From an uncultured Methanosarcinales archaeon (GTDB lineage: Archaea; Nanobdellota; Nanobdellia; Woesearchaeales; JAGVZT01): a stretch of 64,000 nucleotides of DNA. Below, piece after piece: positions 34,301-47,506 of the stretch (the stretch's first letter is position 1; every line of letters starts with the position of its first letter). Made by a program: the position numbers and the translations under genes. Under the pieces are notes generated by a model. That model was not told the origin of the DNA, did no database searches, and saw only the letters and a program-made list of their open reading frames with translations. The stretch covers positions 6,720 through 70,719 of the forward strand of contig CAYUHF010000007.1 of NCBI GenBank assembly GCA_964444505.1, read 5' to 3'.

Positions 34301-37300
34301 TCCACAGCACTCCGAGGCAGTTCCAGAGTTGTATTCTCCAAATTGTGATGATTCTCCTCCCTGGACATAATCAAGACCACATAATGCCCCAGTACATGTT
34401 GTAGAATCAGCATCACAGTCCCTCCACTCGCCAGCAATACATATCGCACCAGGAATACTATCTGCATCCGGGTCACCTTTTGTATCTTCAATATAGCAGT
34501 CTCCACCATATACGCAATCATTCTCCCCACTGCAACAAAACTTATCTGAAGGATCTGAACCTCCTACACAGTTATTATCATAAATATCAGAGCATGCACT
34601 TCCTCCCTGATCAACCAAGTAGGTGAAATATTCTGAATCATCATCTCCGCAGCAAATTCCGTTTGATTTAATATTATAACAGGAAGTCCCTGGGGGACAG
34701 TTCTCTGCAAAGTTTTCTATTGGCTGCGAAACATCCACGTTTGGATAGTATCCTGTTTCATTATCACAGCACTGCGGGCTTGAATCAGGGTCGCATTCCT
34801 GATCCTCACACTGGCATGTATCATAGTCACATTCCTGATTGCCTGAACATGCTGTGCTTCCATCACATGTTGCAGTGCAATTCTCAAAAGTACATACTGC
34901 AGGCCCACAATCTGCTGCCATATCTCCGGTATCTTCAACACACATACCGTAGTTTGGATAGTATTTATTTCCATCACATTCTGTATCACACCATCGGCAA
35001 CCTGCTGTTGCACAGTCGACTGAGTTTTCAATTTCAGAACAAGTGCTTGGGATACATGTTATTGAGTGGGATTTATCTGTTCCATTCTGGTATGATCTGT
35101 CCCATGGTTCAGTTGGAGAGGAATATACTCCACAAACAACATGTACTGTATCCTGACCGTCGCAATCTATTTGCTCATTATTGAAATAAACTTCACCATA
35201 GGTCGGATCCCAAGTATCATCTCCATCTTCCCAGCTCAGATCCTCGTCACCTGAACTCCACACACCATTCTGATCCCTGTCAACATACGCAAAAATACTA
35301 TTATATCCTCTATCTTTTGGTGCTGTCGGATCAACTGTACAAGTAATGTCAATATCATTACCTGATACTACTTCTGCTGCCGAGAGTGAGATATCAATTA
35401 TTCCTACATCGCATCCATCATCTCCATGCTCAGGATCATTCATATTATCATAATCAGTCAAATCATCCCCGTCATTATCGATACCATCATTACAGTTACC
35501 TGCGATGTGAGATTCCTCTGTCAAGCAGTTTGGATCTTCATCGTCCGTCAGACCGTCACAGTCATTGTCAATATCATCATCACAATTCACACCCAGCGTT
35601 TCAGTACCAGATCTGCAATTGTTTGTTCCATCAACGCATGTATTCCCGTCTGCACAGCATCTGGGTTCACCAACTCCTGCTGTAATGTAATTCTCACCTG
35701 CATCGTCTTCACAACATTCCTCTTCGGCACCTGTGTCGTATTCACCAAATTGAACAGATTCACCACCATAAACATAGTTATAGTCACAGATTGTCTCGCA
35801 AGCATAATTATTTGAGTCACAATCCGACCACCTTCCAGGATTATCACCTGACAAATCCCAATCGTTACACCATTCACCCAGTACACCATCTCCGTCAATA
35901 TCTGCCATATCAAGATCATTATAACAAGTGCTCTCAAAGACACATTGTTGACTTTGAGGGCAACAAGTACCGTCTGTAACATCATCACTTTTTCCGACAC
36001 ACACAGGATTAGTTATGTCGTTGCATCCATTTGTGGCATATTGGTCATAGTAAACATAATATTCTTGGTTATCATCTCCACAGCAAGCTGCATTTCCTTC
36101 AAGAAATGTCCAATCTTCGCTATAACAACTACCAGACGAAGACGCAGGACATTGGTTGTCAAAAACACTTGGTTCATTATCAGTATTCATATTAGGTAAA
36201 TAACTTCCTTCACTATCACAGCAAGCTTGGCTTAAATCAGGATCACATGGTGTTGCTTCATAGCAGTTGCCACTGGCATCAACTATTTTATCTGACTCAT
36301 TACAACATCTGGCAGGGTTTACACCATCATTGATATAGTATTCGTTAGGGTCGTCACCACAGCATTCTTCTTCAGAATCAAAATTACATCCCAGGTTTTC
36401 ACACTCTGTCTTATCACTTAAAACTGAACAATCACCCATATTTGTACACTCATCTAAAAAACTGTCCCATGCACATCCCGCTTCACTTAAGCCATTACAG
36501 CAGGATAATGATCCTCCACAAGCAGCATAGCAATCAAATGTTCCAGAGCAACGCAATTCATATTCTCCATGGTCTGTTAATTCACCTGAATAAGCTACTC
36601 CTGTATTAACTCCTTCTGAGGCTCCCCACTCTTCACAATAATCATAGTCAGGATCTATCCAATATCTATCCTTACAATAGAAACTTTGAGATATTGAATT
36701 CCCATTGCAATTCATATCCTCTCCATATCTAAAAGTTGTATCACTAGGATAACAGCAACGTGGACCAACAATAGGATATGCACCCCCTATACAATCTGTC
36801 TCTGACTGACAGCAAGCAACACTATTGGTGTTGTGTACCTCAGAAGTATCATCCTCATCAGTGTAAGCCATATTATGTATAGCATAATCAAATAAACCAT
36901 CACAACAAACTGGTGAGCTAGCATTCACTATAATTTCAGTTTTTCCCCATTGGGCCCAGTCGTATCCTGTATCTCCCTCCCAGGAATTTCTTTCAGGATG
37001 TGTAGTAAACCAAAATCGTTGGATTGATCCAGCATAATTACTAAGATCTACAGCAAAAGGTACCCACCCTGTATCATTTACTAAAAGTCCACTCCATACA
37101 ACGCTATCAGATACGCTATTGAGATCCATTTTTGAAGTGGTGCTTATTCTAATAGTGAACCAAACACCCCCGCTATTTCTGGAACCATCGGCTATACCCG
37201 CATAGCCCACAAGATATGCATCATCCGGAACAAATTTATCGTATATATGTACTGTTGTTCCAGTTCCTACTGCCGTATTCCATGAAGGATGTGCCTGTCT

Positions 37301-38692
37301 TGCGACCATTGCCTCACCCCCCACAGTCGGATATCCAATATTCTGCTGCTGACATACATCCCAGAACATTCCCTCATTAGTTTTTGTCCCATTTCTTCCG
37401 GGTTTTGGATCTGAATAGAAATCACTGTATACATCTCCTGATGACTTAAAGAATTCATTAGCATCATCTCCACAACACCCTGTTTCCAAAAGAATGGAGT
37501 CTCCCGCTCTTATTGCAATGTCATCAAAATAAATTGGCATTCCATCCGCATTGTCGCCATCTGTAACTGCTCTTATTCTGACAGTACCACTAGAATCAGA
37601 TGTAAAATTACATTGCACATATTCCCACTGGTTGTATACGCCAGCAGTGGTTCCTGCATGACACTCATATACTGCATCATGAAGATCAAGATAAGCATTT
37701 CCTGGATAGAAAAGATCAGTCTTTTCTCTGTATATATAGCCTGTGAGATTGAACATTGTATTTTTTGGTACATCAACTTCCTGCCAGGTGCTTACCCCTG
37801 GACCTGTTCCTGTCCAACTGCTCTTCAAAGAGTAACTTCCTGAATGGGCCCTCTCATCAGACCTAGTATGATCAGCATGCTCATTCCAATCTTCAGCATC
37901 GTTACTTGATCCTCTTTCAAATCCTGAGTTTTTAACCACTCCTCTGTATTCTCCATGTGGTGTCCTTTCCCCACTCTGGACTCCCGCGGGACTACCACAA
38001 TATGCATTTGGATAGTCCCAATCCGAATTTGTACAGGCACCACTATCCCAGGAATCACAACTTGGATTACACCAGTTCTTGAACCAATTGTTTGAGTCAC
38101 AGTCAAGCCAGGTCGCTGGCTGGGAATCTGGGGCGGATGGACTTTGATCATAGAGACAATATGCTAGATTATCATTACGACCTGGATGAAGCCCCACATG
38201 AATAAAATCACCGAATTGTGAAAAACTGCTGCCTGATGGATGAGGATCTCCTTCCTTATCAAGGCACTCCGCACTTAAACTAACTCTGGTATCAGCGTGG
38301 TTACAAAAACCTATTGTCTGATATCCCCACTTGTCAATGTGAGCACATCTGTTAACAAAAAAGCCAGAGAATATAGTGTCATTGTCACAGTCCTCCGGAT
38401 AATCTGGATTCGAGGGATTACAACCATCCTCACAGCTTCTCGCATCATAAAAGCCAGGCTCTCCAATTACCTGTGTACATGTTTGCCCGTCTGCCTCATC
38501 AAAAGTACCACATGCATTACATGTGCATGAATCTTCTCCTCGACTGCATTCAAAATAATTTTCTCCCCATGAAGGGGGTTGGTAACAGCAAACAACAGTT
38601 TCCCCAGCAACTTGTAAGACTAAAAATAGACATAATACACTAATTATCCAAAAATGCTTCCTCATATCCAGCCTCTTTTTTATTTTTTTCAA
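28388..38692 (-). CDS. giant secreted cysteine-rich surface protein (3434 aa)
   Basis: The start shows a Sec signal peptide. A CBM4/9-like jelly-roll domain (GFERGS..W..AHSGSYSLK) follows. There are more than 10 CCGDD...CC...CY modules and three ~460-aa tandem repeats. A C-terminal carboxypeptidase-regulatory-like domain is present. The protein has no TM anchor other than the signal peptide. Confidence 0.85.
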   Translation of the reverse strand: MKKIKKRLDMRKHFWIISVLCLFLVLQVAGETVVCCYQPPSWGENYFECSRGEDSCTCNACGTFDEADGQTCTQVIGEPGFYDARSCEDGCNPSNPDYPEDCDNDTIFSGFFVNRCAHIDKWGYQTIGFCNHADTRVSLSAECLDKEGDPHPSGSSFSQFGDFIHVGLHPGRNDNLAYCLYDQSPSAPDSQPATWLDCDSNNWFKNWCNPSCDSWDSGACTNSDWDYPNAYCGSPAGVQSGERTPHGEYRGVVKNSGFERGSSNDAEDWNEHADHTRSDERAHSGSYSLKSSWTGTGPGVSTWQEVDVPKNTMFNLTGYIYREKTDLFYPGNAYLDLHDAVYECHAGTTAGVYNQWEYVQCNFTSDSSGTVRIRAVTDGDNADGMPIYFDDIAIRAGDSILLETGCCGDDANEFFKSSGDVYSDFYSDPKPGRNGTKTNEGMFWDVCQQQNIGYPTVGGEAMVARQAHPSWNTAVGTGTTVHIYDKFVPDDAYLVGYAGIADGSRNSGGVWFTIRISTTSKMDLNSVSDSVVWSGLLVNDTGWVPFAVDLSNYAGSIQRFWFTTHPERNSWEGDTGYDWAQWGKTEIIVNASSPVCCDGLFDYAIHNMAYTDEDDTSEVHNTNSVACCQSETDCIGGAYPIVGPRCCYPSDTTFRYGEDMNCNGNSISQSFYCKDRYWIDPDYDYCEEWGASEGVNTGVAYSGELTDHGEYELRCSGTFDCYAACGGSLSCCNGLSEAGCAWDSFLDECTNMGDCSVLSDKTECENLGCNFDSEEECCGDDPNEYYINDGVNPARCCNESDKIVDASGNCYEATPCDPDLSQACCDSEGSYLPNMNTDNEPSVFDNQCPASSSGSCYSEDWTFLEGNAACCGDDNQEYYVYYDQYATNGCNDITNPVCVGKSDDVTDGTCCPQSQQCVFESTCYNDLDMADIDGDGVLGEWCNDWDLSGDNPGRWSDCDSNNYACETICDYNYVYGGESVQFGEYDTGAEEECCEDDAGENYITAGVGEPRCCADGNTCVDGTNNCRSGTETLGVNCDDDIDNDCDGLTDDEDPNCLTEESHIAGNCNDGIDNDGDDLTDYDNMNDPEHGDDGCDVGIIDISLSAAEVVSGNDIDITCTVDPTAPKDRGYNSIFAYVDRDQNGVWSSGDEDLSWEDGDDTWDPTYGEVYFNNEQIDCDGQDTVHVVCGVYSSPTEPWDRSYQNGTDKSHSITCIPSTCSEIENSVDCATAGCRWCDTECDGNKYYPNYGMCVEDTGDMAADCGPAVCTFENCTATCDGSTACSGNQECDYDTCQCEDQECDPDSSPQCCDNETGYYPNVDVSQPIENFAENCPPGTSCYNIKSNGICCGDDDSEYFTYLVDQGGSACSDIYDNNCVGGSDPSDKFCCSGENDCVYGGDCYIEDTKGDPDADSIPGAICIAGEWRDCDADSTTCTGALCGLDYVQGGESSQFGEYNSGTASECCGDDDNENYVSDGVGDPRCCQDGKNCVDSLNLCRDEFGVQESQCNDGNDTDCDGEWDYDTQNRGASGPSPHGDDGCPVGIDSITLSDTEVISGRKLNITCNVNPTAPAGTGYDSIFAYIDRNGNGIYDAGDTDFTWDSDDYWPNDDEVVFRNETINCLSAPSVDIACGVYNDSREKYNRSYQNGPDVWQTVTCLEGCGDLEEGDCNADPQCTWCDQECDGPKYYPDYLTCVDASTGCADPVCTQGKCIVDGCGMSGGCTLPATCDTDTCLCTDEECDPDAGQQCCDNETGYYPNVDVSQPIENFAENCPPGSSCYDIGFGVGTQGLCCGDDQDEFFEYRHCHTSGAGMFCPADVTTDNSCCDNTDDCVYNGDCYAALNIGYHLGIGDSESDAVCIAEAGDGKWYDCDNSSTTCAYCDSGTNLPDCSGIDCYVESGEDFGHGEYQPGETECCGDDVDEIYVTAGLGPERCCSDLSNCVDLTGHCQTEWDRELTCDDGIDNDCDGLTDLEDPHCQTEESHIAGNCNDGIDNDGDGETDYDNRDGIHGDDGCDVGIIDISLSAPEVVSGSDIDITCTVDPTAPSGQGYDSIFAYIDRDQNGVYSSGDEDLGWEDGDDTWSATYDDVYFNNEQIDCDGQDTVHIVCGVYSGNDAETIDRSHQNGTDKNQSITCIPGTCSEIDNPTDCATAGCRWCDTECDGNKYYPNYGTCVEDTGDMAADCGPAVCTFENCTATCDGSTACSGYQECDYDTCQCEDQVCNPDTFTDGGIPDSACCDNETGLVPSDQVDNNIDEFMDACPPGSSCYSTSWIFESGVANCCGDDFFENYVECYDSDNSNNAWCSGADEACCSSATDCVNTTGDCVVQGQCHGFGTGHKSYCSNARWQDPDELQSYCDSTCDTTAGDMGIDWTAGGGQLNCCGDDEDEYYNYFRLFRPNMPQEEDHGKAQNDTTDNACCTGADKCVFNGICYDPGEYIDYDNDGREDYFCLPESQGDDGSWLNLDYAIGVCEPTYFWNVGGEAVSEDGYYYDAFGHTRPNFCNIASGDHASQMCCCGDDANEEYNYRRDYAASTCNDRTNENCTGGSNSGDEACCDNSGDCVFDGDCYASGTMLDVNLDTVAGERCVSGEWRDCDGSQSFCENQCGFDYAENGETSSFGEYDLSTSTECCGDDLSEYYVFRDVQDQGDSSIVTDTNDDACCDKETDCVFNGECFENSTTIWVDGGQHEVMCYEGGWYDIDDENYCLENDYGWQIGGEVGGDECCGDDVPEFIRYEESLEEHVSGLSEIEFDDNEDACCDSQTDCVNGSNCYSSNTQNEGQSDIIEATTGNLNIGGNDTYSHCYSGLDSNGNGTWLDCDDADFMDFWCADICGPQNPPKLYGDRTYAPDTDHNAVTAGESNVGEYYDLTTPRCCGDDSFEYYKNFTKYVGGANAFVNKELNTEACCREDNNCVDKDNLCVQENNAGFLNDTDDYDRVAYCGEALESDQWIDCDYEMAKCTGCNALLGTVGLEAHWTRAGEFVGEYTNVLDDYECCGDDLNETYKYLKRNADVNNDISMVWPDDPNTNGCCNNTNDCVNVSGACYEDNENANNFNPTGNDNIALCEPGFDRWYDCDSGSAQCQLCDLNWTQNGETFSFGEYDLSTSTECCGDDLGETFRFREVVSTSKESLIEGFFMDRINYSDNACCDNETDCVFEGKCYKDYDIVYAQLELDEQQLASECSQYEDNDNPRIDMKECNEDDRCQWVDGECRIRIYNQHDLHDQIYTDIDGDGWQELCDPGEWHFGDTNAVFFGWVKNSTGQGVPNATVEFVGYDDVRKVTYRYNVTTNGSGYYESYVIANATYDLMASKIGFRSDTVTKQEVEIFDVKEINFTIVWEFEPCESDCTYINDRICHRECNGKVGCEFFDANTTRICNNKNDGWVRAYNSTHEIICCEGEPYETQELRVVDTAASDVEHLVRQVRVVVFRGKPTKLVIDVFK
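31300..35700 (-). repeat. three ~1.38-kb tandem intragenic repeats; copies 1 and 3 are near-identical
   Basis: The DNA string acagttacctgcgatgtgagattcctctgt (encoding TEESHIAGNC) recurs at ~32740 and ~35490. Antisense ORFs 31942..32154 and 34717..35031 are near-identical. Confidence 0.7.
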
Positions 38693-38785: not shown

Positions 38786-39466
38786 TTGGGTGGTAGATTG
38801 ACTATTGACAGAGTATTCGAGATTTGTTTTGAGGGACCTATTGCATCAGGTAAAACAACCTGCGCCAGACATCTTAAAAAAAACTTGGGTGCCGGCGGAT
38901 TTAGATTAGTGCATGAAGACCCATATGAGAATGAGTTCTTTGGGGATTATTACAGGGCTATGGTGGCTGTGCGTGCAGGAAAACCCGTTCCCTCAGATAT
39001 TGAAGAAGGAATATTTTACATGGCCCAGGACAGGTTTCTTGACTTGACTGTAGAGAGAGAAAGTGCAGGCAATAGTGTGAATAGGGTATCAGACCGGCAT
39101 GTATGGGCTGACATTAATATCTTTGCTGAGGGACTTATAGAAAGAGGTTTGTTTTCACCAGAACACGCCTGCATGTACAGAAAAAAAGCATCAACTATAA
39201 ATATTAATTATCCTGACTTTTTGGTATATCTTGCCACAAGTGATCTGGTTTGTTACCATAGGGCACAAAACCGAAGCAGAGATGAAGAGATGAATGTTTC
39301 ATTTTCGCATTTCGAGTTTATTGGTCAGCGGTACAGGGAGCTGATGCCCACATATCCGGGAAGAGTTTTAACACTTCCAACTGATGAACTTAATCTTGAA
39401 TCTGAGCCTGATGATATCAACTATATGCTTGAACAAGTAGCAGGAGCTCTGGCAAAATTAAATTGA
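38786..39466 (+). CDS. deoxynucleoside kinase (dNK family)
   Basis: P-loop FEGPIASGKTT plus VSDRHVWAD (ERS/DRS-type motif); 226 aa. Confidence 0.7.
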   Translation: MGGRLTIDRVFEICFEGPIASGKTTCARHLKKNLGAGGFRLVHEDPYENEFFGDYYRAMVAVRAGKPVPSDIEEGIFYMAQDRFLDLTVERESAGNSVNRVSDRHVWADINIFAEGLIERGLFSPEHACMYRKKASTININYPDFLVYLATSDLVCYHRAQNRSRDEEMNVSFSHFEFIGQRYRELMPTYPGRVLTLPTDELNLESEPDDINYMLEQVAGALAKLN

Positions 39467-40809
39467 TCAAGATTGGAAAAGATCCGTATCTAAAAAAAGA
39501 AATACACAAAGTTCTCTTTGATGACCGTCCCAAGGTTCAGTACTTTAACCAGTCTGATGTTTATCTTGGCCATCCGAGTTCAAATATTGCTGTTGCATTT
39601 ATTTACACCTGGAAAGATGACCACCCTCCAGAACATGTCAAAAAGTTCATGGAAAAACTCTCAAACTACGCATATATTTCTGGTTTCTGGCGAACCACAA
39701 ATGGTGCCAGGTATGTGTTTTCTAATATTCTTGCAAATCCTAATGTGAACAAGCTTTTTGTTTTTGTGTTTGACTACAAGGACAATGGTCATGCTCTTGT
39801 GAATGCCTTGAAAAACTTCTGGAAAAACGGGATAAGAAATGACGGCACAATAAAGGGCTCAATTGCACAAAACCCCAAGTTTGAGCAGATACCTCATGAT
39901 GCACTCCAGAGGATAAGAAAACAGTGTGATCTGGTTGTGGTTGATAAGATAGACAAAAAAGAGTTTGGCAAGATTGAATATATGGTGAAAAACTCAATTA
40001 ATGAGCCAAAAAATCCTGTCAATCTGGAAGAGTGTGAGCTTTCGCCTGTGTTTATTTCAAATGTTGTTGATAAAAAAATTCTTTATGATGATGGAGCCAG
40101 GTTTAAGGAACCATACCACATTGATCTGTCACAGAATGCCTCAACTGTGGAATACAGGGAGAGAAATCTTTCAAATGTTCTTGGCCAGTCTATCCAGGCA
40201 GAAACCCTTGATGAAGCACTGAAATCTGCTGTTGCCTTTATTTTCAAGAATGGTTCTGTTCATGTTGATGACAGGGGGATTATTACAATTGAGTGCAGAA
40301 GCTTTACAGTTACTATTACTGATGCTCTATCAAAAGTGCCTGATGGTTTTTCAAATGGCTATATTAAAAATTATGTTGAAGAGTTTATGGAAGGGCCCAA
40401 AAACCCTATGGAGTACAATTATCACGAGAGAATCTTCAAGCGATGGGGAAATCAGGTAGAAAGAGTTGTTGAGATGCTTGAGGATCATTCTTCAACACGG
40501 AGGATGGTTATTTCTCTTTGGGACCAGAAAAGTGATCTTGAGAATCCGTGTCCCCCTTGCCTTGATATTATCTGGGTGTGCATTCGAAATGACAAGCTGG
40601 AGATGCATGTTTTGTTCAGGAGTCATCATATAGCTACTGTTACAGAGGATGGAAAACTGATGAAAGGCGAGGGTGCTTTTGTTCCAAATATTATTGCACT
40701 TGTTAATCTCCAGAATTACATTGCCAAGAAACTGGAAGTGGAGAGAGGTGCTTTTGTTTTGTCTGAGTTTTCGGGTCATTTATACACAAGCAAGGTGAAA
40801 AATGGGTAA
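39463..40809 (+). CDS. thymidylate synthase-fold enzyme (ThyA/dUMP hydroxymethylase family) with ~210-aa N-terminal domain of unknown function
   Basis: The C-terminal half aligns to the ThyA core: RRMVISLWDQ..NPCPPCLDIIWVC..LFRSHHIA..GAFVPNIIALVNL..GHLY. This corresponds to SRR..W, PPCH, YQRSxD, PFNIASYALL and GDAHIY. Start and stop overlap the neighbouring genes. Confidence 0.6.
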   Translation: MIKIGKDPYLKKEIHKVLFDDRPKVQYFNQSDVYLGHPSSNIAVAFIYTWKDDHPPEHVKKFMEKLSNYAYISGFWRTTNGARYVFSNILANPNVNKLFVFVFDYKDNGHALVNALKNFWKNGIRNDGTIKGSIAQNPKFEQIPHDALQRIRKQCDLVVVDKIDKKEFGKIEYMVKNSINEPKNPVNLEECELSPVFISNVVDKKILYDDGARFKEPYHIDLSQNASTVEYRERNLSNVLGQSIQAETLDEALKSAVAFIFKNGSVHVDDRGIITIECRSFTVTITDALSKVPDGFSNGYIKNYVEEFMEGPKNPMEYNYHERIFKRWGNQVERVVEMLEDHSSTRRMVISLWDQKSDLENPCPPCLDIIWVCIRNDKLEMHVLFRSHHIATVTEDGKLMKGEGAFVPNIIALVNLQNYIAKKLEVERGAFVLSEFSGHLYTSKVKNG

Positions 40810-41461
40810 ACTAATTGTTCTAGAGGGATTGGATGGTTCTGGTAAGCTGACGCAGCTGAAGATGCTGAAAGAGAGACTTATTAAAGATGGTTATCCTGTT
40901 GACACTTTTGACTTTCCCCAGTATGATTCTTTTTTTGGTGCTCTTGTGGGTAAATACCTGCGGGGTGAATTTGGTTCTATGGTTGAACTTCCAGTTGAGA
41001 TTCCGACTCTGTTGTATGCTCTTGACAGGTACTATGTGAGGGATGATATTGAAGAGTCTCTTGAGGAAAATATTGTTCTTCTTAATAGATACACTCCTTC
41101 AAATACCTGTTTTCAGGGTGCAAAGCTTAAGGGTAAGGACCGAGACAAGTTTATCAAGTGGGTTGGTGCTGTCGAGGCAAGGCTTCCACGACCTGACCTT
41201 GTGCTGTTTCTTGATGTTCCAAGATATATTGCAAGAAATCTAATTGGAAACAAGGATCTTAGAAAGTACCTGAATGGAAAAAAGCAGGATATTCATGAGA
41301 AAAATGATCCTTACCAGGAAGAGGTTGAGAGTCTTTACAGAAGACTTGTGAGGGAGAGGAAAAACTGGATCGGTATCAAATGTGTTGAGTATGACCTACT
41401 GCTAAAGGTGGAGGAAATTCATGATAAAATATGGAAGGTAGTAAAACGGGAGTTAGGGTAG
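40802..41461 (+). CDS. tmk: thymidylate kinase
   Basis: IVLEGLDGSGKLTQ P-loop, ALDRYY (DRY motif) and an LNRYTPS lid. Confidence 0.8.
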   Translation: MGKLIVLEGLDGSGKLTQLKMLKERLIKDGYPVDTFDFPQYDSFFGALVGKYLRGEFGSMVELPVEIPTLLYALDRYYVRDDIEESLEENIVLLNRYTPSNTCFQGAKLKGKDRDKFIKWVGAVEARLPRPDLVLFLDVPRYIARNLIGNKDLRKYLNGKKQDIHEKNDPYQEEVESLYRRLVRERKNWIGIKCVEYDLLLKVEEIHDKIWKVVKRELG

Positions 41462-42111
41462 AATTTGTTGGGCCAAAGTGCAGCGGAAAGAGTGTTCTTC
41501 TGAAGGCACTAAAATGCTGGTCATTGCAGCAAGGGCTAGGAATAGTTGACATGGAGAGCTATTGGAAGAGATATCAAAGGTATCCTGAGTTTGATGATTC
41601 ATTTGCTAGTTTATATGATGTTGTTTTGACTGTGGAACCAACATGGGTTGGTGCTGGCAGATCTATAAGGGAGAGATTTGGCGGTGAGTACCAGGAGGTT
41701 TTGCTTCCTGGCAAGAGTGCTCAGGACAGAGGAGATCATTATGGTAGTCTTATAGAACCTGCTCTTGAAAATGGTTTTTATGTTTTCCAGGAAGGCGGAC
41801 TTGCAGAGGATATAGTAAGGTGGGGTGTAGATGTTCTTGATTTTCAGGGAAACCAGATATCAATGCAAAGACATCCTGATTATGTTTTCTTGACAAGGTG
41901 CAGTCCGATTACTGCTGCGCTAAGGATAGACAAGGAGACATGTTCAAACAGAGGCACTTACAGTATTGATGAGATTGTTAAAGAGCATCAGGCATACAGG
42001 ATGGTTGAAGAAGCTGGTATTTATGACAATCTTATTGTTTTTGACACTGAAGATTCAGTTCTCAATACCAAAATGAAGATTATTGAAATGTGGGAAAGCT
42101 TGGTTGAGTGA
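41431..42111 (+). CDS. Tmk-like P-loop nucleotide kinase (divergent paralog A)
   Basis: GPKCSGKS P-loop plus VEPTWVGAGRSIRE, which matches KEPTQNYVGRAISE in 42695..43372. Confidence 0.5.
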   Translation: MEGSKTGVRVEFVGPKCSGKSVLLKALKCWSLQQGLGIVDMESYWKRYQRYPEFDDSFASLYDVVLTVEPTWVGAGRSIRERFGGEYQEVLLPGKSAQDRGDHYGSLIEPALENGFYVFQEGGLAEDIVRWGVDVLDFQGNQISMQRHPDYVFLTRCSPITAALRIDKETCSNRGTYSIDEIVKEHQAYRMVEEAGIYDNLIVFDTEDSVLNTKMKIIEMWESLVE

Positions 42112-42232
42112 TTCTTGTACAAAGAATAGTCTCCATATAGCAACTCTGTTTGTGGAATCCTCCAAATAGTTCTTTGATTGCCAGCCATTCGATTGGAACC
42201 ATTATGCACAAAGCTTTATTATCTTTAGCCAG

Positions 42233-42600
42233 CCTACCTCGGCACAGACGGCCACTTGCGTGTGTCCTATTCCATTAACCTTGTGTATTCGGTTAATTCC
42301 ATCTGGCCAAGGCTGGCCATAGAGGGATTCCTAAATATTATTGGAGCTGTCTTTTATGAATAATTCTTAGGGATAGAAATTAAATACCATGGCTTAATAT
42401 GGTGATGTCAACTATTTCTTTCGATCTAATTTTATCCTTTTTTTGGTCGCTTGCAGTATTTGAGCAAGCTATGCACGTTTGCTTGTGCACTGCACAACCT
42501 CGGCAAGGCATTATGAGTTTTCTGCAGAAATAAGAAGTTCCTGGCCAGATGGAGTTAAACGGAATAGGCCATACGCAAATGGCCGTCTGTGCCAGGTAGG
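42233..42600. repeat. MITE-like element bounded by ~20-bp inverted repeats
   Basis: cctacctcggcacagacgg (42233..42251) matches the reverse complement of ccgtctgtgccaggtagg (42583..42600). The interior contains a TGGCCA-AGGC-TGGCCA hairpin and a ggtcgcttgca motif. Confidence 0.35.
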
Positions 42601-42694
42601 AATTTCCAATAAACATTTTGCTAACAACAATACAACCTCACATAACTTGACACAACCTAAAACTATATAAACTCGAAATACCAATTAGTTCTCT

Positions 42695-43372
42695 ATGGGG
42701 AAATTTGTGATTGTAGATGGTATTGACGGCTCTGGAAAAGGGGCTGTTATGGATGCTTTCAGGGAGTGGACAGAAGAAAAGGAACTCTCATCTATTGATG
42801 TTAGTGAGTACTGCAGAAAACATGAGACTTTCCCGGATATTTCTGAGTATGATGTTGTTTTTTCAAAGGAGCCTACCCAGAATTATGTTGGAAGGGCAAT
42901 TTCTGAAGAGTTTATAAAAGATAGAAGCTATAGTGTTACTTCTACTGCATGGGCTTTTGCTCTTGACAGGGAGATTTTGTACAAAAAAGTTATTATTCCT
43001 GCTCTCAAGGCTGACAAGTTTATTTTCCAGGAAAGAGGTATAACAACGTCTCTTGTTTACCAGCCAGTGCAGGGGAGAATAACCTTAAAGGAACTGATTG
43101 GTATTCCTGGAAACAGGCTTGCCATAAAAAACCAGCCTGATCTTGTTATTGTGACAAAGGTTGAACCCAAGGTTGTTATCCAGAGGATGAGGGTTTCGGG
43201 CAAGCTTGGTTCTGACAGGTTCAGTGAACTGAATTTCCAGAGAAAGATTGACCAGAGATATTCAAGTCCGTGGTTAAGAAAGGTTTTTTCTGACAAGATA
43301 AGGTATATTGATACAAATCCTCCGAATACTGTTAGTGACACCAAGAAAAAGGCAATTGAATATGCTTTCTGA
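42695..43372 (+). CDS. Tmk-like P-loop nucleotide kinase (divergent paralog B)
   Basis: IVDGIDGSGKG P-loop, ALDRE motif and QERGITTSLVYQ. Confidence 0.55.
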   Translation: MGKFVIVDGIDGSGKGAVMDAFREWTEEKELSSIDVSEYCRKHETFPDISEYDVVFSKEPTQNYVGRAISEEFIKDRSYSVTSTAWAFALDREILYKKVIIPALKADKFIFQERGITTSLVYQPVQGRITLKELIGIPGNRLAIKNQPDLVIVTKVEPKVVIQRMRVSGKLGSDRFSELNFQRKIDQRYSSPWLRKVFSDKIRYIDTNPPNTVSDTKKKAIEYAF

Positions 43373-44021
43373 GATCTTTGGTTCAAGTGGTGTAGTTCTG
43401 TCTCACAGAATACCGATCATTGATGGGTCTAAGACAAAAATAGAAGTTTCTTCTGGAAGTAGTTACTGGGGTCTATCTGATATTCTTGATGCAATTGACA
43501 AGGTGCATTCAGAAAATCATGATAAGCATGTACCTTCCAGTTTTGTTGATGGTAATGTTATGGCTCCAGAATGGGACATTCCAATAGGACTGCCCAGCCT
43601 TGATCATGTGCTGCAGGAGAATAATAATTACCCCACTCTTGACAGGGTTATTGATGAGTATCCTGAGATACTGCAGTATGCTGCTGCCAATATTTATAGG
43701 GTTGAGAGATTTGAGCAGTACAACGAGAACACTATTTACTCTTATTTTTCACAGGAAAACGAGAGCTACTATCTTTTCACTCCTGACTGGGTGACTGTTG
43801 TGAGGGCATCGCAGGCTGAACTTGGACATGGTGTTCTGGGATTGGCTATGCCTGGAACTAATGTCATCAAGATTCTTGATACATTGTATGGAAATGACTA
43901 TGTTGAGGTAAAGCAGCATGAACTACTGCACATTTTTTTCCCGCACAAGTCAGAGCCTGAGATAAGAAAAATGACTCCCTGGCACCTGAATTTTCTCCCA
44001 AAATTCCACAAGGCGCAGTAA
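43362..44021 (+). CDS. hypothetical protein with HELLH (HExxH) motif
   Basis: VKQHELLHIFFPHKSEPE. The start is taken at MLSEIF, overlapping the upstream kinase gene. Confidence 0.4.
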   Translation: MLSEIFGSSGVVLSHRIPIIDGSKTKIEVSSGSSYWGLSDILDAIDKVHSENHDKHVPSSFVDGNVMAPEWDIPIGLPSLDHVLQENNNYPTLDRVIDEYPEILQYAAANIYRVERFEQYNENTIYSYFSQENESYYLFTPDWVTVVRASQAELGHGVLGLAMPGTNVIKILDTLYGNDYVEVKQHELLHIFFPHKSEPEIRKMTPWHLNFLPKFHKAQ

Positions 44022-44024
44022 ACT

Positions 44025-44321
44025 CTATTTCAAAGAGCTCTTCACAAGGTGCAGTATAAGTGCAATGTTTAACAAGACTACACCTACACCAACCAGCACT
44101 GCATCTGTTGGGAAAAATCTCATCAGGAAAAGCACAAACCCAAGTCCAATTACAAAAACACCCAGCAAAAGAAAAAACATCCCTGCTATTGACAGGGCAA
44201 TCATTTTCTGGATTGTTTTTATCCTGTGCATGAGCCGCATTTCTGCTCTTTGTACTGATCTGTCAAGTATGTTTCCAAGCTCTGCAATAATATCTGTTAA
44301 AGCCTGGAGAACTCCAATCAT
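44025..44321 (-). CDS. small membrane protein (2 TM)
   Basis: Two hydrophobic helices; 98 aa. Confidence 0.35.
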   Translation of the reverse strand: MIGVLQALTDIIAELGNILDRSVQRAEMRLMHRIKTIQKMIALSIAGMFFLLLGVFVIGLGFVLFLMRFFPTDAVLVGVGVVLLNIALILHLVKSSLK

Positions 44322-44509
44322 CTTTTTCTCCGAAGTAAAGACAGTGCCAGTGCTCCTGCAAGCACTCCTGCGCCAAAAGATATTGCAAGTGCTTCTTTTG
44401 GTTTTTCTGATACTTTTCCTTCCAGGTCCTTTTCTAGTTTTGTAATCTTTTGTTTTAAAGCATCTATCCGCTCTTCTATTACATCTTTATTTACAACTGA
44501 TTTTGCCAT
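44318..44509 (-). CDS. small coiled-coil protein with C-terminal TM
   Basis: 63 aa; translationally coupled to 44025..44321. Confidence 0.3.
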   Translation of the reverse strand: MAKSVVNKDVIEERIDALKQKITKLEKDLEGKVSEKPKEALAISFGAGVLAGALALSLLRRKR

Positions 44510-44639: not shown

Positions 44640-45065
44640 TTGATGTGTTTTATGCAAGGTATTGATACTGCTGTGAAAGCAATAATCATGAGGGATAATA
44701 GGGTTCTTATTCTAAAAGCAGAGGATAATGGTATTTTATGGACAGATCTTCCTGGAGGAAGGATGGAATACGGTGAATCACCGACTGAAGCACTTAAGAG
44801 AGAAGTAAGAGAAGAAACAACACTTGATATTGAAGTTGGAGATATTTTAGGTGCATGGTGGTTTTTCCGATCTCTTGATGGTTCACAGGTTATCTGCATT
44901 ACATATCTTTGTGATTCAGTTGGTGAGGTTGATATCACATGCAATCCTGCTGATGAAGATGTATGCAGCTACGAGTGGGTCGATATTGATGATCTAGATA
45001 GTCTGAAGAACCTTCCTCATGAAAGTATAAAAGAGATTTTCAGAAAGATCAAAGATATGCATTGA
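44640..45065 (+). CDS. NUDIX hydrolase
   Basis: Nudix box GGRMEYGESPTEALKREVREETTL. Confidence 0.8.
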   Translation: MMCFMQGIDTAVKAIIMRDNRVLILKAEDNGILWTDLPGGRMEYGESPTEALKREVREETTLDIEVGDILGAWWFFRSLDGSQVICITYLCDSVGEVDITCNPADEDVCSYEWVDIDDLDSLKNLPHESIKEIFRKIKDMH

Positions 45066-46047: not shown

Positions 46048-46593
46048 ATGTATTTTGTCACTGGAAATCCCGGAAAGTTTAGAGAAGCCAAAGAGATTAT
46101 TCCAGAGCTCAAGCAGATTGAGCTTGATTTGACAGAGATTCAGGAGTTTGATATGCAGAAGATTGTCAAGGCAAAACTAATTGAAGCTTCCAAAAAAGTT
46201 GAGGGTGAAGTTGTGGTTGAGGATACTGGACTTTTTCTTGATTGTCTGAATGGTCTTCCAGGTCCTATGATCAAGTGGTTTTTGAAAAGAGTCGGCAACA
46301 AGGGTTTGTTTGAGATTTGTGATAGTCTGGGTCAATATGGTGCTAAGGCTAAGACAGTTGTAGGATTGTATGATGATGATTTTCATTTTTATGAAGGTTG
46401 TGTCAGGGGAAAGATTGTTTCTCCTAGAGGAGAGGGTTTTGGGTGGGATCCTGTTTTCCAGCCTGAAGGTTATTCTAAAACTTTTGGTGAGATTGGTTTT
46501 AAGAATGATATTAGTATGAGAAGGAAGGCTTTTGAAAAGTTATGGACAGACCGGGACTTTCAAGACGACAAGTCTCAAAAAGGCCATGCATAG
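46048..46593 (+). CDS. non-canonical purine NTP pyrophosphatase (Ham1/ITPase)
   Basis: Ham1 family; the N-terminus is MYFVTGNPGKFRE. Confidence 0.85.
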   Translation: MYFVTGNPGKFREAKEIIPELKQIELDLTEIQEFDMQKIVKAKLIEASKKVEGEVVVEDTGLFLDCLNGLPGPMIKWFLKRVGNKGLFEICDSLGQYGAKAKTVVGLYDDDFHFYEGCVRGKIVSPRGEGFGWDPVFQPEGYSKTFGEIGFKNDISMRRKAFEKLWTDRDFQDDKSQKGHA

Positions 46594-46782
46594 CCTGAAA
46601 CTCAGCCGTCTTTTGAACCCGGGGCCTCCCGCCAGCCAAGCGGGCATTCTGCCAGGCTGAACTATCTGCCCATGAAGTAAATGTATTTTGTTTCTCTTTT
46701 AAATTTTTGCTTCCGAGTCCAAATGGAATCACAACATGGCCAGACAGAGCTCTTGAAGAGTGGAGTAGGGCATCTTGGATGA

Positions 46783-46807
46783 CCGTCTGTGCCAAGGGGT
46801 GGGATTC
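46783..46807. repeat. copy of conserved intergenic element CCGTCTGTGCCAAGG(N)GGTGGGATTC
   Basis: The same ~25-28-nt element occurs at 42583..42605, 63128..63154 and, inverted, at 42233..42253. Confidence 0.4.
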
Positions 46808-46957
46808 AAAAATTTCTTTTTCTATACCAGTCTTAATACTTTAGAGGTCGCTTGCACTGTACAAAAAGTGAACTGCGACAGCTCAAGTTTCCCCAAGCAA
46901 ATTTTCCAAATCGAAATCTTTATAAATATTGAATCAGTAAATTATCTAAAAAAGAGT

Positions 46958-47506
46958 ATGAAACAGATTTTTGAACTGACAATTATTGGACGTGGAGGCC
47001 AGGGCGCAAAAACAGCTTCTGAGGTATTGGCTATGGGGGCCCTTAGAAAAGGGAAGTATATCCAATCTTTTTCTGAATATGGTGCTGAGAGAGGTGGGGC
47101 ACCAATATTCAGCTATGTCCGTATCAGTAATGATCCTATTACTATCCACACTAGTGTTCTTAATCCTGATGTGGTTGTTGTGATTGATGACTCTCTTCTT
47201 CATCTTGCTCCTGAATTTGACGGGAAATTAATTGTCAATACTGCACAATCAGATGATTTTGTCAAAAATGAAACTGGCCATACAGGTAAAGTTTTTACTA
47301 TTGACGCTACTTCGATTTCAGTTGATATTCTGGGGAGAAATATTCCAAACACCCCGACACTAGGTGCTATTGCACGTGTATCAGATATTTTGCCAAAGAA
47401 TATTATTGTTGAAGAGCTTAGAAACAAGCTTGAAAAAAAGATAGGCAAAGAGTTAATGGATAGAAATATTGAATGTCTTAACAGGGCTTATGAGGAAGTA
47501 AAATGA
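46958..47506 (+). CDS. porG: pyruvate/2-oxoacid:ferredoxin oxidoreductase gamma subunit
   Basis: IIGRGGQGAKTA motif. ATG start at 46958, preceded by ctttataaata. Confidence 0.85.
   Translation: MKQIFELTIIGRGGQGAKTASEVLAMGALRKGKYIQSFSEYGAERGGAPIFSYVRISNDPITIHTSVLNPDVVVVIDDSLLHLAPEFDGKLIVNTAQSDDFVKNETGHTGKVFTIDATSISVDILGRNIPNTPTLGAIARVSDILPKNIIVEELRNKLEKKIGKELMDRNIECLNRAYEEVK

What the first reader, a model, noticed from the sequence alone, without database searches (positions are those of the whole stretch)
39463..40809. ThyA-fold enzyme with a ~210-aa novel N-terminal domain and altered active-site neighbours
- The C-terminal ~240 aa align motif-by-motif to thymidylate synthase (SRR..W, PPC, RS.., PFNIASYALL, GDAHIY equivalents).
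- The catalytic Cys is present in PPC, but the invariant His after it (PCH) is Leu (PPCL).
- The YQRSxD Asp is replaced by His (FRSHH).
- The uracil-specifying Asn is retained (FVPNIIAL), so the substrate is predicted to be dUMP-like rather than dCMP.
- The N-terminal 210 aa match nothing I recognise. This is not a DHFR-TS fusion, because no DHFR glycine motifs are present.
- These changes are typical of ThyA paralogs that have switched chemistry, for example hydroxymethylases.
Basis: partly seen in the sequence, partly recalled or inferred. Interest (0 to 1): 0.7.

Follow-up and report, generated by a model that had tools for sequence, protein, structure and literature searches.

The report
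B12-binding domain fused to ThyA
A small symbiotic-type (DPANN) archaeon joins a vitamin-B12-binding domain of the methanogen MtrA type to an archaeal-type thymidylate synthase domain in one protein. The gene sits in an operon of DNA-precursor kinases, so it probably makes dTMP by a B12-assisted route that nobody has tested.

Summary
The ORF (39463-40809, +, 448 aa, TTG start) is real and is a single gene.

The "novel" N-terminal 210 aa are not novel. They form a complete MtrA-type corrinoid-binding domain:
- Pfam PF04208, E 5e-13; profile vs PDB 5LAA, E 1e-18.
- The cobalt-ligand His (H110) and five cobalamin contacts (T78, N80, G81, N88, N108) are invariant in 108 homologues. Only MtrA Glu54 is lost (T79).

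The C-domain is a divergent methanogen-type ThyA. PC-L is general to that type. Asp169→His (RSHH) and a 12-aa insert next to it are specific to this Woesearchaeota/Nanoarchaeota clade.

The gene overlaps a deoxynucleoside kinase upstream and a dTMP kinase downstream. In relatives it sits beside SHMT, and often beside a canonical ThyA-DHFR or ThyX.

Best reading (about 0.45): a corrinoid-assisted thymidylate synthase isozyme acting on dUMP. The C1 route is unresolved. The alternatives I kept open are a conventional TS with an accessory domain, or a different C5 product.

Databases label the protein "thymidylate synthase". I found no paper on it. I rate it a new variant of a known kind.

The parts
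39463..40809 (+). Whole gene: 448-aa MtrA-like / ThyA-like fusion protein (TTG start; stop 40807-40809)
   Evidence: The start overlaps the upstream stop by 4 bp (TTGA). The stop overlaps the downstream ATG by 8 bp.
39463..40107 (+). N-terminal domain, aa 1-215. A short N-terminal beta-hairpin extension (aa 1-29) is followed by a complete MtrA-type Rossmann-like corrinoid-binding domain. It ends in LYDDGARF, which aligns with the MtrA soluble-domain end KDPGAFEE.
39694..39705 (+). T78-T79-N80-G81 loop, equivalent to the MtrA T53-E54-N55-(L)-G57 cobalamin-contact loop. Glu54 is replaced by an invariant Thr.
   Evidence: HMMER alignment. MtrA contacts from PMC4915002. Invariant in 108 of 108 sequences.
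39781..39792 (+). D107-N108-G109-H110. H110 is equivalent to MtrA His84, the lower axial cobalt ligand.
   Evidence: All four residues are invariant in 108 of 108 sequences.
40108..40188 (+). Inter-domain linker, aa 216-242. It is less conserved and has lower pLDDT (76-83).
40189..40806 (+). C-terminal archaeal (methanogen-type) ThyA-like catalytic domain, aa 243-448
40558..40560 (+). Cys366, equivalent to the catalytic nucleophile Cys146 of E. coli ThyA
   Evidence: Invariant in 108 of 108 sequences.
40618..40629 (+). R386-S387-H388-H389, equivalent to R166-S167-C168-D169. The pterin-binding Asp169 is replaced by an invariant His.
   Evidence: Other subfamilies and the stand-alone archaeal ThyA proteins have RS[HN]D.
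40633..40668 (+). 12-residue clade-specific insert ATVTEDGKLMKG, between the RSHH motif and the GAFVPN motif at the cofactor side of the active site
   Evidence: The MAFFT alignment shows it is absent from E. coli ThyA and from all stand-alone archaeal-type ThyA proteins. It is present in the clade and in P0127 and P0131. Conservation.
40687..40689 (+). Asn409, equivalent to Asn177, the uracil-specifying residue
   Evidence: Invariant.
38786..39466 (+). Upstream operon partner: deoxynucleoside kinase (226 aa)
   Evidence: PF01712, E 3.7e-24. 4-bp overlap with the fusion start.
40802..41461 (+). Downstream operon partner: dTMP kinase (219 aa)
   Evidence: PF02223, E 1.5e-21; NF005923, E 7.6e-35. 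8-bp overlap with the fusion stop. A TMK follows the fusion gene directly or within about 200 bp in at least 12 related loci.
41431..42111 (+). Diverged P-loop kinase (226 aa) that overlaps the TMK gene. Its similarity to thymidylate kinase is weak.
   Evidence: PF02223, E 0.012. tblastn relation to the TMK paralogues.
42695..43372 (+). Second dTMP-kinase paralogue (225 aa). It is of the type that follows the fusion gene in L002, L007, L012, L013 and L019.
   Evidence: PF02223, E 5.7e-18; TIGR00041, 83.3 bits. 48% identity to the L002 TMK.

Best explanation
The gene encodes a two-domain enzyme of a clade found in Woesearchaeota and Nanoarchaeota (DPANN).

Shown:
- The N-terminal half is a complete MtrA-type corrinoid (vitamin B12) binding domain. 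It keeps the histidine that ligates cobalt and the residues that hold the cofactor's nucleotide tail and propionamides.
- The C-terminal half is an archaeal, methanogen-type thymidylate-synthase domain. It keeps everything needed to bind dUMP and attack its C6: the Cys nucleophile, four phosphate-binding Arg, Ser, the uracil-specifying Asn, and the His/Tyr that read the 3'-OH.
- The C-domain has lost the Asp that holds the pterin ring, and it has gained a 12-residue loop at that spot.

Inferred:
- The protein is a thymidylate synthase isozyme. In the window, a deoxynucleoside kinase, this enzyme and a dTMP kinase are translationally coupled in pathway order.
- The covalent Cys-dUMP enolate is methylated with the help of the bound corrinoid.
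- The simplest chemistry, by analogy with MtrA's own role as a methyl carrier, is attack of C5 on methyl-Co(III), leaving Co(I).
- The alternative is that methylene-tetrahydrofolate from the adjacent SHMT supplies the carbon and the corrinoid supplies the electrons.
- In either case no dihydrofolate is produced.
- Where a canonical ThyA or ThyX lies next to it, the pair would be B12-dependent and B12-independent isozymes, like MetH/MetE.
For: Architecture:
-.
- AF2 model: pLDDT 93.7, pTM 0.78.

Corrinoid site:
- The MtrA contacts listed in PMC4915002 map as follows. T53, N55, G57, N64, N82 and H84 map to T78, N80, G81, N88, N108 and H110, each 108 of 108 invariant.
- D17 maps to D32 (107 of 108) and K52 to R/K77.

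dUMP site:
- R271, R346, R347, C366, R386, S387, N409 and H439 are invariant. Y441 is present in 103 of 108.

Loss of the pterin anchor:
- D169 is replaced by H389 in 108 of 108 sequences.
- Other MtrA-ThyA subfamilies and the stand-alone archaeal ThyA proteins keep RS[HN]D.

Pathway context:
- 4-bp and 8-bp gene overlaps with the deoxynucleoside kinase and the TMK.
- TMK lies directly downstream, or within about 200 bp, in at least 12 of 22 related loci.
- SHMT ends within about 10 bp of the fusion start in L005, L007 and L019.
- SHMT is present without DHFR in L006, L007, L019 and L023. DHFR appears only where a canonical ThyA is present.
- dUTPase/DCD is nearby.

Other points:
- All catalytic and cofactor residues stay invariant in genomes that also carry ThyA or ThyX (P0017, P0098 and P0010 are in A1).
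- Own knowledge: polar methyl transfer from methylcobalamin to an sp2 carbon has a precedent in TsrM. B12-dependent and B12-independent isozyme pairs (MetH/MetE, NrdJ/NrdAB) commonly coexist.
Against: - No activity data exist, and no cofactor can be placed in the model. The tool returns no coordinates, so I could not measure whether H110 faces C366.
- MtrA Glu54, the partner of the His ligand, is replaced by Thr.
- No gene for loading a methyl group onto the corrinoid was seen in any neighbourhood: no MtrH/MeTr-like gene, no MetF and no reductive activase. No B12 transport or salvage gene was seen either.
- 8 of 22 loci carry a canonical ThyA or ThyX right beside the gene. A TS function would be redundant there, so a different product is possible.
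- The ThyA domain scores below the TIGR03283 cut-off (112.9 vs 174.55).
- The best structural neighbours are ThyA-fold enzymes with changed chemistry (AfhB, MilA) rather than canonical TS.
- 80 stand-alone archaeal-type ThyA loci have no MtrA-like neighbour. No independent Rosetta-stone support was found.
Confidence: 0.45

Rival explanations
1. Conventional pterin-dependent archaeal thymidylate synthase. The ThyA domain uses methylene-tetrahydrofolate (or another pterin) both as carbon donor and as reductant. The MtrA-like domain is an accessory, serving as structural scaffold, regulator or cofactor store, and takes no part in catalysis.
For: - NCBI and JGI pipelines name it thymidylate synthase.
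- It is related to TIGR03283.
- It is linked to SHMT and TMK.
- In the large ~480-aa MtrA-ThyA-DUF4346 subfamily the His ligand is often lost, so the N-domain can evidently persist without it.
Against: - The pterin-anchoring Asp169 is replaced by His in all 108 members.
- The C-terminal tail and the W80/W83 segment that close over the folate are absent.
- The loci with SHMT but no canonical ThyA (L006, L007, L019, L023) have no DHFR within the fetched flanks to recycle dihydrofolate.
- Strict invariance of six cobalamin-contact residues, including the cobalt ligand, is hard to explain for a passive domain.
Confidence: 0.2
2. A ThyA paralogue with a different product. It binds dUMP but makes another C5-modified nucleotide, such as 5-hydroxymethyl-dUMP. 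The product is then phosphorylated by one of the extra TMK-like kinases. Genuine dTMP would come from the ThyA or ThyX that often sits beside it.
For: - It coexists with canonical ThyA-DHFR-SHMT in 6 loci and ThyX-SHMT in 2 of 22 loci.
- There are two TMK paralogue types. Both are present in the window, L009 and L014, and the window has a third diverged kinase.
- The Asp169 position is also the one changed (to Asn) in 5-hydroxy-dCMP synthases (PMC13326640).
- A hydroxymethylase would also release THF and need no DHFR.
Against: - 12 of 22 loci, and the 64-kb window, show no other TS nearby.
- The gene sits exactly between a deoxynucleoside kinase and a dTMP kinase, with overlapping codons.
- No glycosyl- or other group-transferases of the kind that accompany modified bases were seen.
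- The family was absent from IMG/VR viral contigs.
- The family is conserved across a whole cellular lineage.
- A role for a corrinoid in hydroxymethylation is not obvious.
Confidence: 0.2
3. A catalytically inactive relic or a regulatory nucleotide-binding protein.
For: Sub-threshold TIGR03283 score.
Against: About 60 residues are invariant across 108 sequences that are only 45-60% identical to the query. These include the nucleophile Cys, all substrate-binding residues and the cobalt ligand. The structure model is high-confidence.
Confidence: 0.03

Closest known systems
Methanogen-type (archaeal) thymidylate synthase, NCBIfam TIGR03283 / Pfam PF00303
   Same: - Short ~200-aa ThyA fold without the W80/W83 segment and without the C-terminal tail.
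- PC-L instead of PC-H.
- Conserved Cys, Arg quartet, Asn, and His-x-Tyr.
   Different: - Scores 112.9 bits against a 174.55 cut-off.
- RSHH instead of RS[HN]D.
- 12-aa insert after that motif.
- Carries an N-terminal MtrA-like domain.
- According to PMC9931769, archaeal thymidylate synthases have not been followed up experimentally. From my memory of the TIGR03283 description, the full reaction of the methanogen-type enzyme was never reconstituted.
MtrA, the corrinoid-binding subunit of methyl-H4MPT:coenzyme M methyltransferase, and its cytoplasmic homologues (PF04208; PDB 5LAA, 5L8X)
   Same: - His84 ligand.
- T53/N55/G57/N64/N82 contacts.
- NPNI motif.
- P..E of the meander.
- Terminal DPGAF-like motif.
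   Different: - No transmembrane helix and no mtr operon.
- Glu54 replaced by Thr.
- Tyr18 replaced by Val.
- Extra 29-aa N-terminal hairpin and a longer first helix.
- Covalently joined to a nucleotide-binding catalytic domain rather than working with MtrH/MtrE.
Other MtrA-ThyA fusions of uncultivated archaea. Subfamily b: ~390-475 aa, in Thermoprotei, Aenigmarchaeota and Nanohaloarchaea MAGs. Subfamily c: ~470-540 aa, with PF14251 PterinBD-DUF4346.
   Same: Same domain order. The GH ligand is kept in subfamily b. The ThyA part is of the methanogen type. These proteins are also uncharacterised.
   Different: - They keep Asp169 (RS[HN]D) and lack the 12-aa insert.
- Subfamily b scores above the TIGR03283 cut-off (P0133, 210 bits).
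- Subfamily c adds a DUF4346 domain and often lacks the His.
- Their gene contexts differ. L024 lies beside CdhD and RACo. L108 and L109 are not in a dTMP operon.
Bifunctional DHFR-TS of protozoa and plants
   Same: A cofactor-related domain is fused N-terminally to a ThyA domain.
   Different: The N-domain here is MtrA-like, not DHFR. The DHFR-TS structures align only through the TS half. A separate DHFR gene accompanies the canonical ThyA in relatives.
ThyA-fold enzymes with switched chemistry: phage AfhB / 5-hydroxy-dCMP synthase (PDB 9IQC/9IQU), MilA, T4 dCMP hydroxymethylase
   Same: - Compact fold.
- The change is at the Asp169 position.
   Different: - Those enzymes act on cytosine nucleotides and have Asp at the Asn177 position. 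This protein keeps Asn.
- AfhB uses a flavin and O2. The organism here has an anaerobe-type PFOR/ferredoxin cluster.
- None of them has a corrinoid domain.
ThyX (flavin-dependent thymidylate synthase)
   Same: If the corrinoid supplies the electrons or the methyl group, the outcome would be the same as for ThyX: dTMP without dihydrofolate. This fits the absence of DHFR where no canonical ThyA is present.
   Different: The fold and the cofactor are unrelated. ThyX itself is encoded next to this gene in L007 and L019.

Membership tests
ThyA superfamily (PF00303) | Profile score above the Pfam gathering threshold, and the ThyA fold | tested here: met
   [not shown]
ThyA superfamily (PF00303) | Catalytic Cys146; phosphate-binding R21, R126', R127', R166 and S167 | tested here: met
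   C366, R271, R346, R347, R386 and S387 are all invariant in 108 homologues.
Canonical folate-dependent thymidylate synthase (ThyA) | Pterin-binding Asp169, His147, the W80/W83 segment, and the C-terminal tail that closes over the folate | tested here: not met
   H389, L367, segment absent, and the protein ends 7 residues after Y441.
Canonical folate-dependent thymidylate synthase (ThyA) | Converts dUMP and CH2-THF to dTMP and DHF | not testable with these tools
   Needs an enzyme assay.
Methanogen-type thymidylate synthase (TIGR03283) | Score at or above the curated equivalog cut-off of 174.55 | tested here: not met
   112.9 bits. Subfamily-b fusion P0133 and the stand-alone P0155 pass with 210-213 bits.
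MtrA family (PF04208) | Profile score above the gathering threshold, and the MtrA Rossmann-like fold | tested here: met
   [not shown]
MtrA family (PF04208) | His84 lower axial cobalt ligand | tested here: met
   H110, invariant in 108 of 108.
MtrA family (PF04208) | Glu54 hydrogen-bonded to the His ligand (His-Glu linkage) | tested here: not met
   T79, invariant.
MtrA family (PF04208) | Cobalamin tail and propionamide contacts T53, N55, G57, N64 and N82 | tested here: met
   T78, N80, G81, N88 and N108 are all invariant.
MtrA family (PF04208) | Meander consensus GAIPF[YF]xEN | tested here: inconclusive
   The window protein has A-Q-N-P-K-F-E-Q (the family consensus has P in place of the window's Q136). 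Of the MtrA consensus, only the P and E positions are shared (P138 108 of 108, E141 102 of 108); N137 is invariant within the family but is not an MtrA consensus residue.
MtrA family (PF04208) | C-terminal membrane anchor and membership of the mtrEDCBAFGH operon | tested here: not met
   No such segment is present. The neighbours are nucleotide kinases.
MtrA family (PF04208) | Binds a corrinoid | not testable with these tools
   Needs reconstitution and UV-vis or EPR spectroscopy.
DHFR-TS | N-terminal DHFR domain (PF00186) | tested here: not met
   No DHFR hit was found. The N-domain is MtrA-like.
dCMP hydroxymethylase / 5-hydroxy-dCMP synthase | Asp at the Asn177 position (cytosine specificity), and Asn at position 169 for the hydroxylases | tested here: not met
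   N409 and H389.
dUMP hydroxymethylase | Hydration rather than reduction of the exocyclic methylene intermediate | not testable with these tools
   I know of no reliable sequence signature. The Leu143-equivalent position is variable here (N/S/T/C).

The most novel reading that the evidence does not exclude
This would be a third mechanistic class of thymidylate synthase. It would be a cobalamin-dependent enzyme in which the ThyA-type Cys-dUMP enolate takes its methyl group from, or is reduced by, a corrinoid held on a covalently attached MtrA-type domain. dTMP would then be made without oxidising a folate. By extension, the many uncharacterised MtrA-ThyA fusions of Thermoprotei, Aenigmarchaeota and other archaea would share this chemistry.
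Probability: 0.3. Interest if true: 0.9.

Novelty: new variant of a known kind. Interest (0 to 1): 0.66.

Why it matters
Only two ways of making thymidylate are known: ThyA and ThyX. According to PMC9931769, archaeal thymidylate synthases have not been followed up experimentally.

This family joins a ThyA catalytic core to a domain that has every hallmark of binding vitamin B12. At the same time it has lost the residue that anchors the pterin. That gives a concrete, cheap hypothesis to test: does B12 take part in dTMP synthesis?

If it does, three things follow:
- It would add a new B12-dependent reaction.
- It would explain how folate-poor, host-dependent DPANN archaea make DNA precursors without DHFR.
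- It would flag a B12 dependency relevant to their symbioses.

If it does not, the family still shows a new use of the MtrA fold outside methanogenesis.

Tried and rejected
1. Split gene or wrong start. Rejected: the ORF is continuous, 108 full-length homologues share the N-terminus, and AF2 gives one confident two-domain model.

2. DHFR-TS. Rejected: there is no DHFR domain.

3. Viral or mobile origin of the window gene. The family gave no confirmed hit in IMG/VR, and the window is ordinary archaeal chromosome with thermosome, aaRS, CCA enzyme, Rpb7 and PFOR. One distant relative, P0127, does sit in an integrase/methylase context.

4. Rosetta-stone test. I asked whether stand-alone archaeal-type ThyA genes sit next to MtrA-like genes. 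There were none in 80 metagenome loci (691 kb) using two N-domain HMMs. Those loci also lack TMK, SHMT and DHFR.

5. B12 riboswitch near the adjacent ThyA/ThyX or elsewhere. No Rfam family was found in the window or in 7 loci.

6. B12 transport, salvage or methyl-loading genes near the fusion. None appeared among the Pfam-annotated neighbours or the window ORFs I scanned.

7. Literature. Six searches found no paper on an MtrA-ThyA fusion.

8. Technical dead ends:
- The exact-sequence contig look-up for the window protein found nothing.
- The afdb50 fold library was unavailable.
- The first metagenome query alignment was too diverse.
- One Rfam call exceeded the size limit.
- The structure tool returns no coordinates, so I could not measure the His110-Cys366 distance.
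Full report
**1. The observation**

The window has one uninterrupted ORF at 39463..40809 on the + strand (448 aa, TTG start). Its TTG overlaps the stop of the upstream gene by 4 bp (aaTTGAtc). Its stop overlaps the ATG of the downstream gene by 8 bp.

An identical protein is on record from an NCBI contig of 74.8 kb. 129 further homologues were found, almost all 440-470 aa and covering 99-100% of the query. An alignment of 108 full-length members (A1) shows about 60 invariant residues. It also shows a conserved N-terminus, so the start is right and the N-terminal region is not a separate gene.

| Window residue(s) | E. coli ThyA equivalent |
|---|---|
| R271 | R21 |
| E307 | E58 |
| Y320 | Y94 |
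| R346/R347 | R126/R127 |
| P365-C366-L367 | P145-C146-H147 |
| F385-R386-S387-H388-H389 | Q165-R166-S167-C168-D169 |
| N409 | N177 |
| S437/H439/Y441 | D205/H207/Y209 |

Codon positions were checked.

**2. What the N-terminal half is**

It is not an unknown domain.

- Pfam finds MtrA (PF04208) at aa 68-181, E 5.3e-13. NCBIfam MtrA models match aa 30-182.
- The best PDB sequence matches are the two crystal structures of MtrA, 5L8X and 5LAA. E is 2.6e-11 with the single sequence and 1.3e-18 with the family profile.
- An AlphaFold2 model built on A1 is confident (mean pLDDT 93.7, pTM 0.78).

The MtrA structure paper (Wagner et al. 2016, PMC4915002) lists the residues that hold cobalamin:
- His84 is the lower axial cobalt ligand.
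- Glu54 is hydrogen-bonded to His84.
- Asn55 and Asn82 contact the propionamides.
- Asp17, Lys52, Thr53, Gly57 and Asn64 hold the nucleotide tail.
- Tyr18 and Val61 sandwich the base.
- A 'meander' with consensus GAIPF[YF]xEN completes the site.

In the HMMER and MAFFT alignments these map as follows, with counts:

| MtrA residue | Fusion residue | Conservation in 108 sequences |
|---|---|---|
| His84 | H110 | 108/108 |
| Thr53 | T78 | 108/108 |
| Asn55 | N80 | 108/108 |
| Gly57 | G81 | 108/108 |
| Asn64 | N88 | 108/108 |
| Asn/Gln82 | N108 | 108/108 |
| Asp17 | D32 | 107/108 |
| Lys52 | R/K77 | all R or K |
| Val61 | V/A85 | V 61, A 46 |
| meander P..E | P138, E141 | 108/108 and 102/108 |

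The conserved linker motif LYDDGARF corresponds to the KDPGAFEE end of the MtrA soluble domain.

Two contacts differ. Glu54 is an invariant Thr (T79), and Tyr18 is Val/Ile. I conclude that the domain very probably still binds a complete corrinoid, base-off and His-on. That is a homology inference, not a measurement.

**3. What the C-terminal half is**

It is a divergent member of the short 'methanogen-type' ThyA group. TIGR03283 matches aa 243-444 with E 1.4e-32, but at 112.9 bits against a cut-off of 174.55.

All residues that bind dUMP and start catalysis are invariant, apart from Y441, which is present in 103 of 108.

Leu in place of His147 is not special. Every stand-alone archaeal-type ThyA in the alignment has PC-L or PC-M.

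Three features mark this clade, and its two distant relatives P0127 and P0131:
- His in place of the pterin-anchoring Asp169. The motif is RSHH here and RS[HN]D in all other subfamilies.
- A 12-residue insert, ATVTxDGKLMxG, directly after that motif.
- An end only 7 residues after Tyr441.

The pterin side of the active site has therefore been rebuilt, while the nucleotide side has not.

**4. The wider family**

A profile search of 1.84 billion representative proteins gave 2672 hits at E≤1e-3. They fall into five groups:
- (a) This clade collapses into one 50% cluster. Source names are Woesearchaeota, Nanoarchaeota and Nanobdellota.
- (b) Fusions of 390-475 aa have a strongly MtrA-like N-domain with the GH ligand and an Asp169-containing ThyA domain. 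P0133 scores 141 bits to PF04208 and 210 bits to TIGR03283. They come from Thermoprotei, Aenigmarchaeota, Nanohaloarchaea and other MAGs.
- (c) A large group of 470-540 aa has a degenerate MtrA-like domain, often without the His. It also has a ThyA domain and PF14251 'PterinBD-DUF4346'.
- (d) Stand-alone ThyA proteins of 200-250 aa.
- A few proteins have the clade-type N-domain joined to unknown C-termini.

The MtrA-ThyA fusion is therefore widespread in uncultivated archaea and is visible to annotation pipelines. One JGI name reads 'thymidylate synthase/tetrahydromethanopterin S-methyltransferase subunit A'. Six full-text searches found no paper that discusses it. A 2023 study of archaeal thymidylate metabolism states that archaeal thymidylate synthases have not been followed up experimentally (PMC9931769).

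**5. Genomic context**

In the window the gene is the second of a tightly packed + strand block:
- deoxynucleoside kinase (38786-39466);
- the fusion gene;
- dTMP kinase (40802-41461);
- a diverged P-loop kinase (41431-42111);
- a second dTMP-kinase paralogue (42695-43372);
- further on, NUDIX and Ham1 house-cleaning enzymes.

The first three genes follow pathway order: nucleoside to dNMP, dUMP to dTMP, dTMP to dTDP.

I tallied 22 related loci by tblastn:
- A dTMP kinase follows the fusion gene directly or within about 200 bp in at least 12 loci.
- dUTPase/DCD is usually within 3 kb.
- SHMT is within 10 kb in 10 loci, and ends within about 10 bp of the fusion start in L005, L007 and L019.
- A canonical 288-aa ThyA with DHFR and SHMT is adjacent in L002/L003, L005, L010, L012 and L013. 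In L017 the ThyA is adjacent and the contig then ends.
- ThyX plus SHMT is adjacent in L007 and L019.
- L006 and L023 have SHMT only.
- The other 12 loci, and the window, have none of these genes within reach.
- DHFR occurs only where a canonical ThyA occurs.

The fusion proteins from genomes that also carry ThyA or ThyX keep every invariant residue.

**6. Most likely mechanism**

Shown:
- a dUMP-binding, Cys-nucleophile ThyA core;
- an intact MtrA-type corrinoid site on the same chain;
- loss of the pterin anchor;
- operon linkage to dTMP kinase, a deoxynucleoside kinase and SHMT.

Inferred: the enzyme makes dTMP, and the corrinoid takes part in catalysis.

MtrA's own job is to carry a methyl group on cobalt. 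The simplest proposal is therefore that the C5 carbanion of the Cys-dUMP adduct attacks methyl-Co(III), giving dTMP and Co(I). From my own knowledge, polar methyl transfer from methylcobalamin to an sp2 carbon has a precedent in TsrM. What reloads the cobalt is unknown, because no methyltransferase, MetF or activase gene is nearby.

The alternative fits the SHMT linkage better. Methylene-THF would supply the carbon as in ThyA, and the corrinoid rather than the pterin would supply the two electrons.

Both versions predict THF rather than DHF as by-product. This fits the absence of DHFR wherever a canonical ThyA is absent. Coexistence with ThyA or ThyX would then be a B12-dependent/independent isozyme pair, as with MetH/MetE (own knowledge). 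I put this explanation at about 0.45.

**7. Rivals**

- (i) A conventional pterin-dependent TS with a passive N-domain (0.2). The invariant cofactor contacts, the lost Asp169 and the missing DHFR argue against it.
- (ii) A paralogue that makes another C5-modified dUMP, such as 5-hydroxymethyl-dUMP (0.2). The adjacent genuine TS genes, the extra TMK paralogues and the structural closeness to AfhB and MilA argue for it. Arguing against it are the loci without any other TS nearby, the kinase-TS-kinase operon order, the absence of downstream modification genes, and the absence of the family from viral contigs.
- (iii) An inactive relic (0.03). The conservation pattern contradicts this.

**8. Negative and inconclusive tests**

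- Eighty metagenome loci around stand-alone archaeal-type ThyA genes contain no MtrA-like ORF. The fusion is therefore not backed by conserved neighbourhood in organisms where the two are separate.
- No cobalamin riboswitch or any other Rfam family was found in the window or in seven loci.
- The contexts of subfamily b are uninformative, except that L024 lies next to the corrinoid protein CdhD and the corrinoid activase RACo of an acetyl-CoA pathway cluster.
- The structure tool gives no coordinates, so the geometry between His110 and Cys366 is untested.

**9. Verdict**

The interesting point is not an unknown domain. It is a recognisable B12-binding domain in an unexpected place, paired with a ThyA core whose pterin anchor has been replaced.

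It is a new variant of known kinds, ThyA and MtrA. Databases already hold it under an automatic name, and it is functionally untested. It offers a directly testable route to a possible third type of thymidylate synthesis.

Noticed in passing
window 28388-38692 (-): A giant 3434-aa ORF with a signal-peptide-like N-terminus. It is extremely Cys-, Asp- and Gly-rich and has long internal repeats (recurring CCGDD...EYY units and 'CDDGIDNDCDG' modules). Its only Pfam hit is a CarboxypepD_reg domain near the C-terminus. It is probably a surface or adhesion protein of the DPANN cell, and is transcribed divergently from the kinase/ThyA operon.
   Followed up: partly
window 38786-43372 (+): Four P-loop nucleotide or nucleoside kinases lie in a row around the fusion gene: a dNK, a TMK, a very diverged TMK-like kinase and a second TMK paralogue. 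The two TMK types are distinct lineages, only weakly similar to each other by tblastn. Related loci carry one type or the other. Both types are present in the window, L009 and L014. Their substrate division is unknown.
   Followed up: partly
window 43308-44021 (+) and 44065-44445 (+): Two ORFs of 237 aa and 126 aa lie directly after the kinase block and before NUDIX (44640-45065) and Ham1 (46048-46593). Neither has a Pfam match. They may belong to the same nucleotide-metabolism island.
   Followed up: no
L022 9986-10993 (contig JADGEQ010000023.1, labelled Desulfobacteraceae bacterium MAG): A 335-aa ORF whose first ~230 aa are 46% identical to the N-domain plus linker of the fusion (TTNG, DNGH and YDNGARF all present). 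Its last ~100 aa are unrelated to ThyA. It sits among bacterial peptide-ABC-transporter and aminotransferase genes. This could be horizontal transfer with loss of the ThyA half, or an assembly chimera.
   Followed up: partly
L026/L027 8001-9416 (protein P0127): A distant RSHH-type member of the fusion family (471 aa). It lies in a mobile-element-like region with an integrase, a C5 DNA methyltransferase, an Orc/Cdc6-like protein, HD-CE, HhH-GPD and many ORFs without families.
   Followed up: no
proteins P0128, P0130, P0140, P0142: Proteins of 290-360 aa that carry the clade-type MtrA-like domain (TTNG or TVYG, DN[TV]H, YDDGARF-like). It is joined to C-terminal segments of ~100 aa with no Pfam match and no ThyA domain. 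The same corrinoid-type module seems to be paired with other partners.
   Followed up: no
proteins P0136, P0137, P0139, P0163, P0165, P0221, P0245: A large uncharacterised family of ~470-620 aa combines an MtrA-like domain, a methanogen-type ThyA domain and PF14251 PterinBD-DUF4346. In P0165 the order is MtrA-DUF4346-ThyA. The same DUF4346 ends a dihydropteroate-synthase-like family (TIGR00284) and a 390-aa 'MtrA' family (NF002128), which hints at a pterin/corrinoid docking module.
   Followed up: partly
L009, L013, L014, L016, L019, L020, L023 (record titles): Several GTDB representative records that carry this DPANN-type gene are titled 'uncultured Methanosarcinales archaeon'. Their local gene content (NMD3, TFIIS, TMK, DCD) looks like the Woesearchaeota loci. 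The titles may be placeholder or wrong taxonomy.
   Followed up: no
L002 12074-12832, L004 14439-15170, L006 10217-10942, L023 about 12185-12913: A Fer4_12 + radical-SAM protein of about 250 aa recurs between the dTMP kinase and dUTPase/DCD in the related loci. It resembles an anaerobic ribonucleotide-reductase activase or QueE. It is part of the conserved nucleotide island and is absent from the window's version.
   Followed up: no
window 46775-49955 (+): A four-gene pyruvate/2-oxoacid:ferredoxin oxidoreductase cluster (gamma, delta-ferredoxin, alpha, beta). It indicates an anaerobic, ferredoxin-based metabolism. This is relevant to how a Co(I) state could be maintained.
   Followed up: no
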